Notes: a model not told the origin generated them from the letters alone. Positions 60,568-64,000 are shown, counted from the first letter of the stretch. The stretch: DNA of 64,000 bases from a virus (IMGVR_UViG_3300010399_000006:8851-72850); one strand, 5' to 3'. Translations and numbers: made by a program.

Positions 60568-62061
60568 CAGACGCCTTTGTACTTCGTCAGCTTCACTATG
60601 ATCTCGATCGCGACTTGAAGCGAATAGCTAAGCGGTTCAAGAATCCGAAGATCACGCTTGTGGTCCGCAATCTAGATGTGGCTGATGGTGACGTGGTGCT
60701 TACTGACGACGACACCGAGGCTGCCATTGCTGCCATTCGCAAACTCTATCCGACTGAGGTAGTATCGTGAATGACGGTACGTACCTAGTCGCCTATTGCA
60801 AATCTGGTTGTGTAGTGGGCTGGTCCAGTCTCAAACCGTCCATGCTGCTCATCGACGTACAGAAGTTCGCCAGTACTGCTAGGCAGCACGGATACCGGAT
60901 CGATGAAGTTAGTGGTAGTGGCGGTCCACCGGAGTACGTGAATCTGTGGTGCGGACACCGATGAACAGGAGAAACTGATGGCACACTACTGCACAGAGGA
61001 TGAAGAGGATCGGTATACCACCGTGGATGAAGATGGAGACCGGTTGCTTGAGGTACATATCCCAGGTAGTGACGGCCGCGACGATTGTCCTCACGCGTAC
61101 GTGTGCCTGCCACACCAGTGTGACCGATGGGTAATTGGTGGGGCAGCGGAGGTCCGCGCTTTGATGAAGGACTTGGAGCAACTGCTGCCGCGTCTGGTGG
61201 AGTGGGAAGAGTCGAGTGGAGCAAAGAGCGGAGTATCGAATGATTGATCTACTCTTCGGCATCCTGATCGGTCTCACCGTCTACCCGATCGGCCAGTGGC
61301 TGTTCTCTAAGTGGCTGGACCGCCCCAGACCGTTCAGGATCGATCGGGATTTCCGTAACCCATGTCGGGATTGCACTATCGGGAGGGCGTCCTGAGCGAC
61401 GTGGGAGTGCTACAGAGTGGGTCATTTGGTGAGCAGTATGGGTCAATTGTTGACCAACTTACCCGATAAGGAATTAGGTTGATGGCCGTAAGTGGGTACC
61501 GCAATTGGGAACAGAAAGCAGCGTGGAATGGCCGAGAGGTAGTGCGGTATTTACGGCTGGCTAGACTGGCTAGCTCCAAGCGGCAGTTCGTGAGTAGGTT
61601 GCACTGGGCTGTAGTGCACGCTACGGCGGCGTGGAAACTAGCAGTGAAAGCAACTGCGGAGACTGCGAGATAGGGATAGGCACGCTTTCCCCTCCCTGTC
61701 CCGCAATTCGTGAGAGGATGAAGGAATGACGACGATCGACGATAGCGACTGCCCTCTCCACGTGCGGCTACATCCAGACGAGAAATGTACGTGCCCACAG
61801 AAACCGCCCGGTAATCATCTGCCGCCCGGTAATTGGCACGCAATCGAAGGGCCCAACGGCATGTGCGCATGCGGTCCGATCAACGGATGTCCTGAGCGAC
61901 TGAACGCGCACATCGCCAATCTCCTAGACGACGAACGAAACAGCGTGCTGGAGGAGATACCGGATGTGTGGCGTCGGTCGCCAGGAACGTTGGTCGAGAA
62001 AGTCCGCGCAATGGTTTCGTTCTTCGCAAGCGATTCCGTGCCAACTCCCCAAAACGAGTAG
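60564..62061 (+). CDS. Small hypothetical genes (60564-60770, 60767-60964, 60978-61247, 61726-62061)
   Basis: SD sequences and coupling. Confidence 0.6.
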
Positions 62062-62085
62062 TCACCACTCTGTGGGGGTAATTCT

Positions 62086-62589
62086 GTGATTCGACACTAC
62101 GCCAATTTGACGAACGGCCTTGGATGGTGGACTCGTATGCCAGAGCCGCGCTCAGTCATCCGTATCCCTAGTACCTACCTAGAGCAAAAGCTCTTCGACG
62201 ATCTCTTGCGAGGTCTAGATGCTGCTTTTCTATTGGCTATCGCATCTGGCGATGAATGCATTGTCTACGATCAGGGGGCGCGCAAACCAACGTCTCGGGC
62301 AATCTGGCAGGGATTGCCGTTCATCGTAGCGGCACTCAGTTGGCGATGGAGACGTGTGGAGGTGCCGGTCGTTTGGCGTGGACATGATGCATCGGTGTAC
62401 GCCCACGGTCAGATTCGTCAGCTCGACCCGAAGACGAAATCGTACCTCGATTACTTCAAGCGGTACGACTTGGGGGGTCCGATCGTTGTTCGCGGTGTGT
62501 GCGAACCTACGGACAGGGATGGGGATAAGCGGTACTACGCTGATGAGGTTAGCGACCGATCGGGCATAGGCGAGGAGGTAAGTACCTAG
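62086..62589 (+). CDS. Hypothetical protein
   Basis: YANLTNGL...IRIPST.LEQ...VYD.G...SRAIWQG; globular composition. Confidence 0.7.
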   Translation: MIRHYANLTNGLGWWTRMPEPRSVIRIPSTYLEQKLFDDLLRGLDAAFLLAIASGDECIVYDQGARKPTSRAIWQGLPFIVAALSWRWRRVEVPVVWRGHDASVYAHGQIRQLDPKTKSYLDYFKRYDLGGPIVVRGVCEPTDRDGDKRYYADEVSDRSGIGEEVST

Positions 62590-62603
62590 CTCTGGTTGGG
62601 GTC

Positions 62604-62633
62604 TTGACAGAACGTCAGTAGTCCTCATATGCT
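62604..62633 (+). promoter_or_regulatory. sigma70-type promoter
   Basis: TTGACA-18 nt-TATGCT; shares TTGACAG.ACGTCAG with the 2240 promoter. Confidence 0.65.
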
Positions 62634-62679
62634 GGTGGCTTGCCGAATCACACCATCAGCTCTGGGGAGGGATCGCCGA

Positions 62680-63552
62680 ATGCCGACGATCGGTAAAGCT
62701 AGAAGACGTACTTCCGCCGTCGTTCCCGCTTCCACTTCCCGTCCACGCCGCACTACCCACCACCGTACGTTCTCGTCTCTCCAACCAGAACAGGAATCAG
62801 AACAGCCATCTCAGCACTTCCAGGTAGATTCCCAACCACCAGGACGGATACGCCAGTACTTACCACCCGACGACCCCAACTCCGAATGGAACCAGCGCTC
62901 TCCCGAGACCCCCGAAGGGCGGCTATCCGGTCTCAAAGAATCTGACTGGTCAGTACCACAGGGGGATGAGCCCTACCTTAGAGACGATGATGGGAGCAGA
63001 TCCGGCTCTCGATCAGGCAACGGCGAAGGCCAGCAATACGACAAGCGCTACCGAGCTGAAGACTTCCACGTCGCCACCATTAACTCCTACGACCATCAAG
63101 TCACGATCAGCGTACCGATGACTCGCGAGATGTTGGTGAGAGTACAGACCATTCTGCGGTCGAAGCGGTTACCGTTTAGTTCTCGCGAGAACTTTGTAAA
63201 CGTAGCGGTGTTCGAACTCATTCAGATCTGCAACCGTCTCGAACCGCTACCTGATTCGCACATCGCCGTCTTGGAGTCGATGAACGATCTCAACCACAAC
63301 TTCAAAGTGATGGTGGACTACGACTACACCATACGGCAATCGTGTCGAGTGATACATGATCTGGTAGAGCAGCGACTAAAGAATAATGCCAGAATTATGG
63401 TGCATGATCTGCTGCGAGATATTCAGCGGATCAAGAGTAGAGAAGTACGGGAGAAGCACCGCAAACGGGTGGTTGAGGAGTTCGGATCGCTGATCGGCGA
63501 GGCGAAGCCGGTTAGTGGTAGGCCGGTACGTACCAACAAGAAAAGACGTTGA
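62680..63552 (+). CDS. Protein with disordered N-half and ribbon-helix-helix-like domain
   Basis: GGGGAGG SD; VTISVPMTREMLVRVQTIL....FSSRENFVNVAVFELI. Confidence 0.65.
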   Translation: MPTIGKARRRTSAVVPASTSRPRRTTHHRTFSSLQPEQESEQPSQHFQVDSQPPGRIRQYLPPDDPNSEWNQRSPETPEGRLSGLKESDWSVPQGDEPYLRDDDGSRSGSRSGNGEGQQYDKRYRAEDFHVATINSYDHQVTISVPMTREMLVRVQTILRSKRLPFSSRENFVNVAVFELIQICNRLEPLPDSHIAVLESMNDLNHNFKVMVDYDYTIRQSCRVIHDLVEQRLKNNARIMVHDLLRDIQRIKSREVREKHRKRVVEEFGSLIGEAKPVSGRPVRTNKKRR

Positions 63553-63577
63553 CAATCCGGTACGTACGACTTATACT
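63549..63577 (+). promoter_or_regulatory. Promoter containing GGTACGTACG
   Basis: TTGACA-17 nt-TATACT; ATG 6 nt downstream. Confidence 0.8.
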
Positions 63578-63583
63578 TCTCCC

Positions 63584-63886
63584 ATGAAGATTGAATTCGA
63601 CGTTGATGACAAGACCGTGATCTCTCTGGCGCACGATGCCATCCGTTCTAAGCTCGGCCCCAAGGGAACGGTCCCACACCTGCTCAGCGTAGAGATCGAT
63701 AAGCAACTCGCCGAGGTAGTCGCCGGGATGGATCTGCGTCAGACCATTCGCGCTCGGATCGACGAGGTAACCAAAGAGATCGTCGCCGATGCAGTCAACA
63801 ACCGGCTACGTGGGATTGCTCGCACCATCGTCAATCAGGAGATCGAAAGGGCACGCGCTACGGCCACTCTGGAAGCGACTGCGTGA
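63584..63886 (+). CDS. Helical hypothetical protein (likely leaderless)
   Basis: MKIEFDVDDK... start fits the promoter. Confidence 0.7.
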   Translation: MKIEFDVDDKTVISLAHDAIRSKLGPKGTVPHLLSVEIDKQLAEVVAGMDLRQTIRARIDEVTKEIVADAVNNRLRGIARTIVNQEIERARATATLEATA

Positions 63887-63891
63887 TCATT

Positions 63892-63985
63892 CAGGGGTTA
63901 GCTCAATTGGTAGAGCGTCGGCGTGCTAGGCTTCGGCCTAGCCACATGCCGGAGGTTGGTGGTTCGACTCCATCACCCCTGACCA
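63892..63985 (+). tRNA. tRNA-like RNA with an 18-nt hairpin inserted in the anticodon loop
   Basis: CAGGGGT/ACCCCTG-A-CCA, TA, GCTC-AATTGGTA-GAGC, TCGGC/GCCGG, AGGTT, GGTGG-TTCGACT-CCATC; the anticodon loop holds 25 nt. Confidence 0.88.
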
Positions 63986-64000
63986 AATCACCGTTCAGCA

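What the first reader, a model, noticed from the sequence alone, without database searches (positions are those of the whole stretch)
63892..63985. Intact tRNA body with a perfect UUCG hairpin plugging the anticodon loop
Seen: acceptor stem, U8/A14, G18G19, G15-U48, T arm and encoded CCA are all in place. Between the anticodon-stem strands are 25 nt, GT-GCTAGGCTTCGGCCTAGC-CACAT. The 18 nt at 63925-63942 form a 7-bp stem with a cUUCGg tetraloop. Deleting them gives exactly 76 nt with a 7-nt loop GT-CAC-AT (U33, CAC, A37) and A73, which fits tRNA-Val, although G32 is atypical and C1-G72/A73 is also Pro-like. Unspliced, the arm folds as one long helix with a small bulge and has no anticodon. Known: 18 nt is far too short for a group I intron, and there is no bulge-helix-bulge motif. 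Inference: either an anticodon-less tRNA mimic (decoy for anticodon nucleases such as PrrC/RloC/VapC, a sponge for synthetases or EF-Tu, or a non-ribosomal aminoacyl donor), or a caged tRNA activated by a cut-and-ligate step. It sits 5 nt after a gene driven by a near-consensus promoter, so it is probably transcribed.
Basis: partly seen in the sequence, partly recalled or inferred. Interest (0 to 1): 0.88.

Follow-up and report, generated by a model that had tools for sequence, protein, structure and literature searches.

The report
Hairpin-plugged valine-type tRNA look-alike
A soil phage carries a well-formed tRNA gene whose anticodon loop is blocked by a tiny hairpin; other phages carry different inserts at the same spot, next to the same small enzyme gene, so it is probably a valine-type tRNA look-alike and not a working tRNA.

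Summary
Window 63892-63985 is a 94-nt cloverleaf (Rfam tRNA 53.3 bits, cut-off 29) with an 18-nt perfect cUUCGg hairpin in the anticodon loop. The hairpin is unique in the genome, and a second assembler reproduced it.

Three points are new.
1. The host is bacterial, and no splicing or ligase gene was found in the complete 72.7-kb phage.
2. The element is not an orphan. It belongs to a family of phage tRNA look-alikes with C1-G72, A73 and N-A-C-A in front of the 3' anticodon-stem strand. They carry inserts of 0, 18, 30, 78-108 nt at the same site, and each lies directly upstream of one conserved small metal-cupin gene (phrog_4786).
3. The tRNA sequence lies inside that gene's open frame. No canonical start codon follows the tRNA. 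A GTG overlaps the upstream stop, and an ATG sits at tRNA positions 37-39.

Uninterrupted relatives have G33, not U33, so decoding is unlikely. The valine identity set (A35, C36, A73) is kept throughout.

Best reading (0.45): a non-decoding, probably valine-chargeable tRNA mimic whose transcript also serves as the 5' end of the cupin mRNA. An excised intron (0.2) is not excluded. No RNA data exist.

The parts
63549..63577 (+). Sigma-70-like promoter TTGACA-17-TATACT, with the palindrome GGTACGTAC in its spacer
   Evidence: 11 of 12 matches. One search shows the same design at four other + strand sites. It is a consensus match only.
63584..63886 (+). Upstream ORF, 100 aa, no family found. Its TGA stop (63884-63886) overlaps the next GTG.
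   Evidence: no Pfam or PHROG hit.
63883..64000 (+). 5' part of a 181-aa open frame. It starts at GTG 63883 as GTGA with the upstream stop, is cut by the window end, and continues at genome 124-551 (locus L004:6-551). Residues 42-164 form a small metal cupin (phrog_4786).
   Evidence: E 1.4e-36; pLDDT 95.8; TM1459/KdgF-type cupins. In-frame canonical starts are only GTG 63883, TTG at tRNA position 16 and ATG 63946.
63892..63985 (+). 94-nt tRNA-like gene. Acceptor 63892-63898 / 63975-63981, D arm 63901-63916, T arm 63958-63974, A73 at 63982, CCA at 63983-63985.
63918..63952 (+). Extended anticodon arm: stem TCGGC/GCCGG, G32 U33, insert, then C34 A35 C36 A37 U38.
   Evidence: -21.6 kcal/mol, z -4.18.
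63925..63942 (+). 18-nt insert: 7-bp perfect stem closed by a cUUCGg tetraloop.
   Evidence: Relative to the uninterrupted relatives L173 and L181 the extra bases lie just 5' of the shared ACA.
63943..63947 (+). CACAU, the conserved N-A-C-A-N stretch (valine-type positions 34-38).
   Evidence: Present in 12 of 12 family members.
63946..63948 (+). ATG at tRNA positions 37-39, in frame with the cupin.
   Evidence: The same ATG is seen in L146, L171a, L173, L176a, L177 and L178a and in the protein P0013.

Best explanation
The element is a non-decoding, valine-type tRNA look-alike. It belongs to a conserved phage module made of an odd-anticodon-arm tRNA-like gene followed head-to-tail by a small metal-cupin gene. 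The 18-nt UUCG hairpin is the shortest known version of a variable insert domain. That domain sits just 5' of a conserved N-A-C-A stretch in the anticodon loop. It is tolerated there because the RNA is not used for decoding.

Proposed working (inferred): the transcript from the promoter at 63549 has two exclusive fates.
1. Folded, it is a substrate for RNase P and 3' trimming. This gives a stable CCA-ended L-shaped RNA. It keeps A35, C36, A73, G45 and G3-C70, so ValRS can probably charge it. The ribosome cannot use it, because the loop is a 14-bp helix with a CAC bulge.
2. Kept unfolded by ribosomes that arrive from the upstream gene (GTGA overlap), the same bases are read as the first ~35 codons of the cupin.

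Shown here: the structure, the family, the synteny, the open frame, the lack of a later start codon, and the conserved valine-type bases.
Inferred: processing, charging, the switch between the two fates, and any role in trans.
For: Family and synteny:
- Of 37 loci with the cupin motif (this phage included), 19 have a tRNA-like gene ending 20-90 nt upstream. 17 were found by ARAGORN; L145 and L197 were found by Rfam. L173=L174=L175 and L156=L190 are duplicates.
- The 3' halves are 58-82% identical to this one and the 5' parts 59-78%.
- The acceptor stem has 7/7 pairs in 14 of 16 and 6/7 in 2, with different sequences. C1 is found in 14 of 16, A73 in 15 of 16 and an encoded CCA in 7 of 16.

Inserts at one site:
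- Loop plus insert measures 25, 37, 85, 92, 96, 114 (four times) and 115 nt, against 7 nt in L173 and L181 (alignment).
- In the ten interrupted relatives the insert folds on its own and 5 or more loop bases ending in N-A-C-A-N stay unpaired in front of the 3' strand (L156 6, L179 6, the three 107-nt 'a' members 9). In the window's own arm only CAC is left unpaired, because A37 and U38 pair with U33 and G32.
- The 107-nt class has 8 of 56 pairs with compensatory changes, 3 of them inside the insert.

Valine type:
- N-A-C at 34-36 in 12 of 12: AAC 8, CAC 2, GAC 1, UAC 1.
- A35, C36 and A73 are major valine determinants, G45 and G20 minor ones, and the G3-C70 pair matters (review PMC9976931, passages read).

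Against decoding:
- The uninterrupted relatives have the loops AGAACAU and CGAACAG, so G33.
- A34 predominates.
- Neighbouring paralogues have 11-nt loops.

Coding overlap:
- The frame is open from GTG 63883 through the tRNA into the cupin.
- The PHROG match starts at residue 42, and the modelled fold starts 3 residues after the tRNA with pLDDT above 90.
- 9 of 14 distinct loci have no ATG, GTG or TTG in frame between the tRNA and the domain. In 8 of those 9 the frame is open across the whole tRNA-like gene. The baseline is 309 of 897 tRNA-frame combinations open, 34%.
- A 4-nt start/stop overlap is the house style of this genome: 15 ORF pairs.

A close relative keeps the insert:
- Protein P0013 (80% identity, another assembly) reads MIQGLAQLVERRRAWFRPRHMPEVGGS.
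- It has the same 17 codons from D arm to T arm, hence an 18-nt insert.
- Its amino-acid changes fall on stem positions whose partners are silent third positions. The 3 of 7 pairs that can be read remain Watson-Crick (my back-translation).
Against: - There is no RNA evidence of any kind.
- In this phage, unlike most relatives, exact removal of the hairpin would give a textbook 7-nt loop (U33, CAC, A37). The body also scores higher (53 bits) than its relatives (29-47 bits). That is what a true tRNA with a recently acquired intron would look like.
- There is no Shine-Dalgarno sequence in front of ATG 63946, and only a weak GGAAG in front of GTG 63883.
- The open frame through a 94-nt tRNA has a one-in-three chance on its own.
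- The insert of P0013 is inferred from protein, not seen as DNA.
- G20 and U4-A69 of the E. coli valine set are absent.
- C1-G72 with A73 is the proline pattern in E. coli (recalled).
- The function of the cupin is unknown (generic fold).
- A link between the cupin and the RNA beyond position was not tested.
Confidence: 0.45

Rival explanations
1. It is a tRNA-Val(CAC) gene with a short intron (a 'caged' tRNA). Host or phage enzymes cut out the insert and ligate the halves, as must also happen for the longer inserts of relatives. This would be the same phenomenon as the 'enigmatic introns' of Lak megaphage tRNAs.
For: - The inserts are variable and unrelated, sit at one site in homologous bodies, and uninterrupted alleles exist.
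- The flanks here restore U33-CAC-A37.
- The valine anticodon is kept in 12 of 12.
- The 107-nt inserts are structured with covariation.
- Precedent: introns were reported in Lak phage tRNAs, including Tyr(GTA), with no mechanism given (PMC6784885, passages read).
Against: - Neither a bulge-helix-bulge nor a group I core is present: 18 nt, and no Rfam family in the inserts at E up to 0.5.
- RtcB, RNA_ligase and tRNA_int_endo were not found in the complete genome. The T4 Rnl1 search is uninformative because its control rang nowhere.
- The host is bacterial by promoters and Shine-Dalgarno use.
- The uninterrupted relatives have G33 and mostly A34, so even insert-free members look unfit for decoding.
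- An 18-nt hairpin cannot catalyse its own removal.
Confidence: 0.2
2. It is a free-standing decoy or sponge. The processed anticodon-less RNA soaks up an anticodon nuclease, a synthetase or EF-Tu, or donates valine to a non-ribosomal enzyme. The overlap with the cupin frame would then be incidental.
For: - The L-shape elements, A73 and CCA are intact. Those features matter only for a free 3' end.
- The valine determinants are kept.
- It lies among early genes that include candidates for counter-defence, such as NADAR, a SLOG protein and an HNH nuclease.
- Phage tRNAs as answers to tRNA-cutting defences are an established theme (PMC10264068, abstract in the listing).
Against: - No target is known, and I know of no valine-specific anticodon nuclease (recalled).
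- It does not explain why 9 of 14 loci lack a start codon after the tRNA yet keep the frame open.
- It does not explain the ATG at positions 37-39 preceded by GGAGAGG in the 107-nt class.
Confidence: 0.2
3. It is a dead or dying tRNA gene: a palindromic insertion inactivated it, and it persists only as spacer or coding filler.
For: - It is a single copy in a phage with only one other tRNA.
- The closest helicase relatives of the phage have no tRNA at all: 0 of 15 loci and 0 of 4 records.
Against: - The body is flawless (53.3 bits, 7/7 acceptor pairs).
- Family members keep covarying stems and the N-A-C-A motif.
- P0013 keeps an insert of the same length despite 20% protein divergence.
Confidence: 0.1
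4. It is an assembly artefact at the joined ends of the contig.
For: The whole tRNA lies within the 123-nt terminal repeat. Depth is only 7.5.
Against: - A second assembler gives the same bases and bridges the end by 5.6 kb.
- A relative from another assembly encodes the same-length insert.
Confidence: 0.02

Closest known systems
'Enigmatic' introns in tRNA genes of Lak megaphages (Devoto et al. 2019, PMC6784885; abstract and passages read, supplements not seen)
   Same: Phage of a bacterium. Extra sequence inside otherwise good tRNA genes. The insert is conserved between relatives, no mechanism is known, and it is found only when intron-aware settings are used.
   Different: Those are 540-kb phages with about 30 tRNAs. 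The sizes and sites of their introns are in supplementary tables that I could not read. No link to a cupin gene or to a reading frame was reported.
Archaeal and eukaryal tRNA introns (bulge-helix-bulge, cut by EndA/TSEN, joined by RtcB)
   Same: Short insert in the anticodon loop. Anticodon-side bases pair with the insert. A 3-nt bulge lies next to the anticodon stem.
   Different: The site is 32/33-34, not 37/38. The second bulge is missing. The motif's cut sites would give an 11-nt loop. The host is bacterial and no EndA or RtcB is in the phage.
Bacterial Y RNA YrlA (Rfam RF02553), a tRNA mimic bound by Rsr
   Same: A T arm, D arm and acceptor-like helix, plus a long helix with internal loops where the anticodon arm would be. 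It is non-decoding. YrlA-like partial matches lie beside related modules (L143:1390-1457, 38 bits, E 4e-5).
   Different: YrlA is circularly permuted, with a closed acceptor and open ends in the long stem. This RNA has an open acceptor with CCA. It scores 15.6 bits against a cut-off of 69. No Rsr/TROVE gene is in the phage.
Valine-accepting tRNA-like structures of tymoviruses (TYMV TLS-Val)
   Same: A viral tRNA mimic that keeps A35/C36 (CAC) and is charged by ValRS without serving in decoding (PMC9976931, passages).
   Different: That is an RNA virus of plants, the element is a 3'-terminal pseudoknotted acceptor, and its anticodon loop is normal.
tRNA-like leaders in mRNAs (E. coli thrS operator)
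   Same: A tRNA mimic placed on the translation start region of a gene (PMC9976931, passages).
   Different: thrS mimics only anticodon arms and controls a synthetase gene. Here a whole cloverleaf overlaps the first codons of a cupin gene.

Membership tests
Canonical tRNA (Rfam RF00005) | Covariance-model score over the curated cut-off | tested here: met
   53.3 bits against 29, model positions 1-71.
Canonical tRNA (Rfam RF00005) | 7-nt anticodon loop with U33 that presents a triplet | tested here: not met
   25 nt lie between the stem strands. The minimum-energy fold is a 14-bp helix with a CAC bulge.
Archaeal-type BHB intron | Two 3-nt bulges separated by a 4-bp helix, with cuts that restore a 7-nt loop | tested here: not met
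   One 3-nt bulge only. A continuous 7-bp helix follows. The geometry rule itself is recalled, not taken from a call.
Archaeal-type BHB intron | Splicing endonuclease and RtcB available | tested here: not met
   PF01974 and PF01139 are absent from the phage. The host genome is unknown, and many bacteria do have RtcB.
Group I intron in tRNA | About 200 nt or more with a P1-P9 core | tested here: not met
   18 nt. No Rfam match in the region at E up to 10 other than tRNA and three chance-level hits.
YrlA / Y RNA | Rfam RF02553 score over 69 bits and a permuted layout | tested here: not met
   15.6 bits, E 0.85. The layout is not permuted.
tmRNA | tRNA-like domain plus a tag reading frame | tested here: not met
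   ARAGORN with tmRNA search finds none.
Valine-identity tRNA or mimic | A35, C36, A73 (major); G20, G45, G3-C70, U4-A69 (minor) | tested here: inconclusive
   A35, C36, A73, G45 and G3-C70 are present. U20 and G4-C69 are not the E. coli bases (against PMC9976931). Charging was not tested.
Phage module 'Val-type tRNA-like + phrog_4786 cupin' (defined here) | tRNA-like gene ending less than 90 nt upstream of the cupin domain, N-A-C-A before the 3' stem strand, A73 | tested here: met
   Gap of 35 nt, CACA, A73.

The most novel reading that the evidence does not exclude
This is a so far undescribed class of bifunctional phage transcripts. A valine-type tRNA mimic has an anticodon loop that is a docking site for exchangeable RNA domains, from an 18-nt hairpin to a 107-nt structured domain with its own Shine-Dalgarno sequence and AUG at positions 37-39. 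The same sequence is also the translation start region of a phage-specific metal cupin. tRNA processing and cupin synthesis therefore exclude each other. The module would sense or exploit the state of the host's tRNA-processing, charging or translation machinery, possibly as a counter-defence.
Probability: 0.3. Interest if true: 0.85.

Novelty: new variant of a known kind. Interest (0 to 1): 0.74.

Why it matters
Phage tRNA genes are usually read as codon supplements or as replacements for tRNAs cut by host defences. Here a family of them keeps everything a synthetase and the processing enzymes need, but gives up the anticodon loop. It is also welded to one protein gene, sometimes so tightly that the gene has no start codon of its own.

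If the RNA is charged but not decoded, it is a bacterial-virus counterpart of the plant-virus valine tRNA-like structures. If it is spliced, bacteria or their phages have a protein-dependent tRNA splicing route that nobody has described. Both outcomes can be tested with a northern blot and a charging assay.

There is also a practical point. Gene callers routinely translate these tRNAs into false N-termini (...EVGGSNPSPLT...), which both hides the RNA and mis-annotates the cupin.

Tried and rejected
- **Archaeal virus with a relaxed BHB intron.** Rejected. The proteome is not acidic (median pI about 7.9). GGAGG-type sites precede many starts (42 of 103 crude ORFs). TTGAC(A/T)-N16-18-TAnnnT sites lie 9 of 10 on the coding strand. 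The cut geometry does not fit.
- **attP or host tRNA copy as the reason for the repeat.** Gapped patterns with fixed stems found 0 matches in genome contigs, metagenome contigs and viral contigs. An acceptor/D-arm pattern found one match in genome contigs, a chance match in a Terriglobia MAG that is not a tRNA.
- **Close relatives of the phage through the adjacent helicase.**
  - A single-protein scan found nothing.
  - The protein search found 11 homologues, the best non-self one at 37% identity.
  - The first alignment was too diverse.
  - 15 loci were recovered, with 0 tRNAs in them and 0 of 4 whole records with a tRNA.
- **blastn against 50,697 phage records.** Only partial body matches, best to tRNA-Trp of Pseudomonas phages. 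None covers 80% of the query.
- **Trp-like body with an insert.** One unrelated odd tRNA, L142.
- **RNA evidence.** No RNA holder is listed for the stretch, so expression is untested.
- **Raw reads.** Not available, only contigs. Heterogeneity and physical ends could not be examined.
- **Cupin function.**
  - No Pfam hit.
  - PDB profile hits were weak, E 0.4-1.
  - Foldseek gave generic small Mn/Fe cupins at 13-18% identity.
  - The Atlas shows virus-dominated unnamed clusters.
- **More relatives that share the tRNA-encoded N-terminus.** Only P0013.
- **Literature.** The terms found no description of this module. Those searches cover open-access text only.

Full report
**1. The thing itself**

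Window 63892-63985 reads as a complete cloverleaf. The parts are:
- acceptor CAGGGGT/ACCCCTG, with C1-G72;
- U8, and a D arm with A14, A15, G18 and G19;
- anticodon stem TCGGC/GCCGG;
- variable loop AGGTT;
- T arm GGTGG-TTCGACT-CCATC;
- A73 and an encoded CCA.

Between the anticodon-stem strands lie 25 nt: GT, then GCTAGGC-TTCG-GCCTAGC, then CACAT.

Rfam's tRNA model scores 53.3 bits (cut-off 29) over all 71 model positions and puts the extra bases in the loop. ARAGORN gives 'tRNA-Pyl(cta)' by default and 'tRNA-Ser(gct) + 18-nt intron' with introns allowed. Both names are artefacts of where the program puts the cut. An in-silico deletion series gives Val(cac), Val(gac), Gly(gcc) or Ser(gct), depending on the register.

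The fold is far better than shuffles: z -3.83 for the whole RNA and -4.18 for the arm. In the minimum-energy structure G32-U38 and U33-A37 also pair, so the arm is a 14-bp helix with CAC as a 3-nt bulge and a UUCG cap. The hairpin is not a repeated element of the genome.

**2. Where it sits**

The window is bases 8851-72850 of a 72,850-nt virus record with identical 123-nt ends. The record is rated complete. The tRNA lies wholly inside that repeat.

Logan's separate assembly of the only public run that holds the stretch, a soil metagenome and probably the source, matches 62000-64000 without a difference. It continues 5.6 kb beyond the window end at depth 7.5. So the molecule is circular or concatemeric in the reads, and the tRNA occurs once per unit. 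A repeat of 123 nt equals the largest k-mer of an assembler setting that I recall. The chance that a random 123-nt window holds the whole 94-nt gene is 30 in 72,727, which I cannot explain.

**3. The host is a bacterium**

My first suspicion was an archaeal virus with a relaxed intron motif. It failed on four counts:
- The predicted proteome is not acidic.
- GGAGG-like sites precede many starts.
- Ten sites fit TTGAC(A/T)-N16-18-TAnnnT. Nine are on the strand of the genes behind them. Five carry a GGTACGTACC-like palindrome in the spacer, including the one at 63549 that drives the gene in front of the tRNA.
- Only one 3-nt bulge exists. The cuts that a bulge-helix-bulge would dictate give an 11-nt loop.

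Pfam finds an SU10-type portal, a pectate-lyase-like fibre, an XPD/DinG-like helicase, an ERCC4 nuclease, an HNH nuclease, and NADAR and SLOG proteins. Six-frame family searches of the complete genome find no RtcB, Rnl2-type RNA ligase, splicing endonuclease or Ro/TROVE protein. The T4 Rnl1 search proves nothing because its control was silent.

**4. No near copy, but a family**

Patterns that fix the stems and leave the loop open found nothing in the viral, genome or metagenome collections. A looser acceptor pattern gave one chance match. The phage's nearest helicase relatives (35% identity) carry no tRNA. By blastn the body is nearest to phage tRNA-Trp genes, with a T arm nearly identical to that of Pseudomonas phage D6, but the acceptor differs.

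The turn came from the reading frames:
- A 181-aa frame starts at GTG 63883, overlaps the stop of the upstream gene as GTGA, and runs through the whole tRNA and beyond the window end.
- Its residues 42-164 match phrog_4786 (E 1.4e-36).
- The fold is a confident small cupin with an HxH...H site (pLDDT 95.8). It is nearest to TM1459, KdgF and DddK-type metal cupins at 13-18% identity and belongs to virus-dominated unnamed clusters.
- No ATG, GTG or TTG stands in frame between the tRNA's 3' end and the conserved domain. The in-frame starts are GTG 63883, a TTG in the D loop, and ATG 63946, which is tRNA A37-U38-G39.

**5. What the relatives show**

*Proteins.* 188 homologues of the cupin exist. 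At least twelve of the 17 that I aligned have N-terminal extensions that are translated tRNA: '...EVGGSNPSPLT' from the T arm and 'LAQLVER' from the D arm.

*Loci.* DNA for 27 viral and 37 metagenome loci shows the following:
- Of 37 loci in which my motif search found the domain (this phage included), 19 have a tRNA-like gene that ends 20-90 nt upstream. Several others sit inside tRNA arrays.
- Sixteen such genes compared keep 6-7 of 7 acceptor pairs with different sequences. C1 is present in 14, A73 in 15 and CCA in 7.

*Anticodon arms.* In twelve arms of the main type, the five bases before the 3' stem strand are always N-A-C-A/G-N: AAC 8, CAC 2, GAC 1, UAC 1.
- Two arms are uninterrupted, with loops AGAACAU and CGAACAG.
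- The other ten carry 18 (this one), 30, 78, 85, 89, 107 (four times) or 108 extra bases 5' of that stretch. Each insert folds on its own.

*The 107-nt class.* The four members share a consensus fold with 8 of 56 pairs changed on both sides, 3 of them within the insert. They end in GGAGAGGGUAUUUAAC-AUG, a Shine-Dalgarno-like run that is paired in the fold and is followed by the AUG at positions 37-39.

*Insert site.* Alignment with the two uninterrupted members places this phage's 18 nt just 5' of the shared ACA.

**6. Decoder or mimic?**

For an intron speak:
- the constant site;
- the unrelated inserts;
- the existence of insert-free alleles;
- in this phage, the clean U33-CAC-A37 loop that excision would give.

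Against it speak:
- a bacterial host with no known protein-dependent tRNA splicing;
- no ribozyme-sized or Rfam-recognised element;
- no ligase or nuclease gene in the phage;
- above all the insert-free relatives, which have G33 where elongator tRNAs have U33, and A34 in most. Neighbouring paralogues have 11-nt loops.

Selection has therefore kept A35, C36, A37 and A73 but not the features needed for the U-turn and wobble reading. A35, C36 and A73 are the major valine determinants. G45 and G3-C70, also present here, are lesser ones. G20 and U4-A69 are not present. I conclude that charging by ValRS is the conserved property and that decoding is not.

**7. The coding overlap is probably not an accident**

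- In 9 of 14 distinct loci no canonical start lies between the tRNA-like gene and the cupin domain. In 8 of these the cupin frame is open across the entire tRNA-like gene, up to 184 nt. In the ninth it is open from position 11.
- Among 299 ordinary tRNAs in the fetched loci, only 309 of 897 tRNA-frame combinations are open. Seven or so independent lineages all being open has a rough chance below 0.001.
- A start codon stands exactly 9 nt before tRNA position 1 here (GTG), in L173 (ATG) and in L179 (GTG after GGGAGAG).
- An ATG at positions 37-39 recurs in L146, L171a, L173, L176a, L177 and L178a.
- L145 has its ATG directly after CCA.
- Four-base start/stop overlaps are common in this genome: 15 pairs.

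So ribosomes must enter the cupin frame from within or before the tRNA sequence. That is incompatible with the same molecule being cut out as a tRNA. Hence my proposal of two exclusive fates.

**8. The one close relative**

P0013 (80% identity, 182 aa, a 3.6-kb contig of another assembly) begins MIQGLAQLVERRRAWFRPRHMPEVGGSTPSVLTN.
- The spacing from D arm to T arm is the same 17 codons, so it has an 18-nt insert too.
- Back-translation shows changes at stem positions 4, 7 and probably 16. Their partners are third codon positions.
- The three pairs that can be read (2-17, 5-14, 6-13) are intact. The loop can still be UUCG.
- The Pro-to-Val change in the acceptor 3' strand can be matched by a silent change in the Gly codon opposite plus a G-U pair.

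This fits selection on RNA pairing. It is inference from protein, because the DNA could not be fetched. No other protein shares this N-terminus.

**9. Known things**

The nearest published observation is the report of 'enigmatic' introns in tRNAs of Lak megaphages, said there to be the first in phages (PMC6784885; abstract and passages read). The intron tables are in supplements that I could not open.

My searches found no description of a valine-type tRNA look-alike fused to a cupin gene. They cover open-access text only.

In working terms the closest analogues are the valine-accepting tRNA-like structures of tymoviruses, the thrS-type tRNA-like leaders and the bacterial Y RNA YrlA. YrlA-like partial matches lie next to related modules, but this RNA fails the YrlA model.

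**10. Verdict**

The finding is real and unusual, and it is not an isolated curiosity.
- Non-decoding valine-type mimic that doubles as the 5' end of the cupin message: 0.45.
- Excised intron: 0.2.
- Free decoy with an incidental overlap: 0.2.
- Relic: 0.1.
- Artefact: 0.02.

Nothing here shows transcription, processing, charging or translation. All four can be tested with standard assays.

Noticed in passing
window 40472, 42119, 44314, 48636, 63549 (+ strand; genome 49322, 50969, 53164, 57486, 72399): Five sigma-70-like promoters TTGAC(A/T)-N17-TAnnnT share a GGTACGTACC-like palindrome in the spacer, probably an operator for one repressor. Three others (genome 2883, 11090, 71454) share ACGTCAG instead.
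   Followed up: partly
window 63878-64000 and genome 1-123: The 94-nt tRNA lies wholly within the 123-nt terminal repeat of the record, with 14 nt before it and 15 after. A random break would do this 30 times in 72,727. No explanation was found.
   Followed up: partly
L156/L190, L158, L185, L191, L193; also L173-L175: Relatives of the cupin gene have an in-frame TAG within the first codons (ATG TAG ... or ATG AAA TTC ACA TAG). A tRNA with anticodon CTA stands next to the module in L156/L190 and L173-L175. These are probably TAG-recoded phages.
   Followed up: no
L143:1390-1457, L148:616-730, L156:1176-1232: Sub-threshold matches to the Y RNA-like family YrlA (38.2, 25.3 and 25 bits; cut-off 69) lie beside the interrupted tRNA-cupin modules. 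In L143 the order T arm, then hairpin, then D arm is visible in the translation.
   Followed up: no
L171:1307-1383, L176:1310-1386, L178:1250-1326: A second tRNA-like gene lies between the 107-nt-insert gene and the cupin. It has an 11-nt anticodon loop: CATAACAGTAA in two loci and ATAAAACGTAA in L178.
   Followed up: no
L026, L043, L063, L039, L095, L024/L068 (viral contigs of 32-362 kb): These are other phage-like tRNA genes with short hairpins or palindromes in place of the anticodon loop. Examples: GGGG-GAAA-CCCC in L026, a GCAA-capped hairpin before GAA in L043, and a 22-nt perfect palindrome in L063. They were found with the pattern TTGGTAGAGC-N35-60-GGTTCGANTCC. Most of the other 120 matches are eukaryote-type tRNA-Tyr(GTA) genes with introns, many of them in giant-virus records.
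   Followed up: no
L040, L079, L101, L130, L134: tRNA genes with anticodon TAT and a long, hairpin-forming variable region, ending in ACCA.
   Followed up: no
L046, L103, L127, L137: Four tRNA-like genes share a related insert of about 50 nt (…TCAAGG.GAAGGGCC.AAA.GC.GGG…) after the D arm.
   Followed up: no
L147-L152, L155, L157, L159, 600-1000 nt upstream of the cupin: ARAGORN calls 'tRNA-Phe(gaa)' genes with inserts of 131-200 nt at position 32-33, sometimes two in tandem. They may be mis-parsed permuted tRNA-like RNAs.
   Followed up: no
genome 2527-2886, 4755-5192, 6076-7038, 7035-7532 (before the window start; locus L004): The genes just after the module encode an HNH nuclease, a NADAR domain protein (95 bits), an ERCC4 nuclease and a YpsA/SLOG protein.
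   Followed up: no
L173:1210-1282 and L181:1172-1246: The insert-free members can close position 32 with 38 (A-U, C-G), leaving a GAACA pentaloop. From memory this resembles the GNRNA loops of phage boxB hairpins. Not tested.
   Followed up: no
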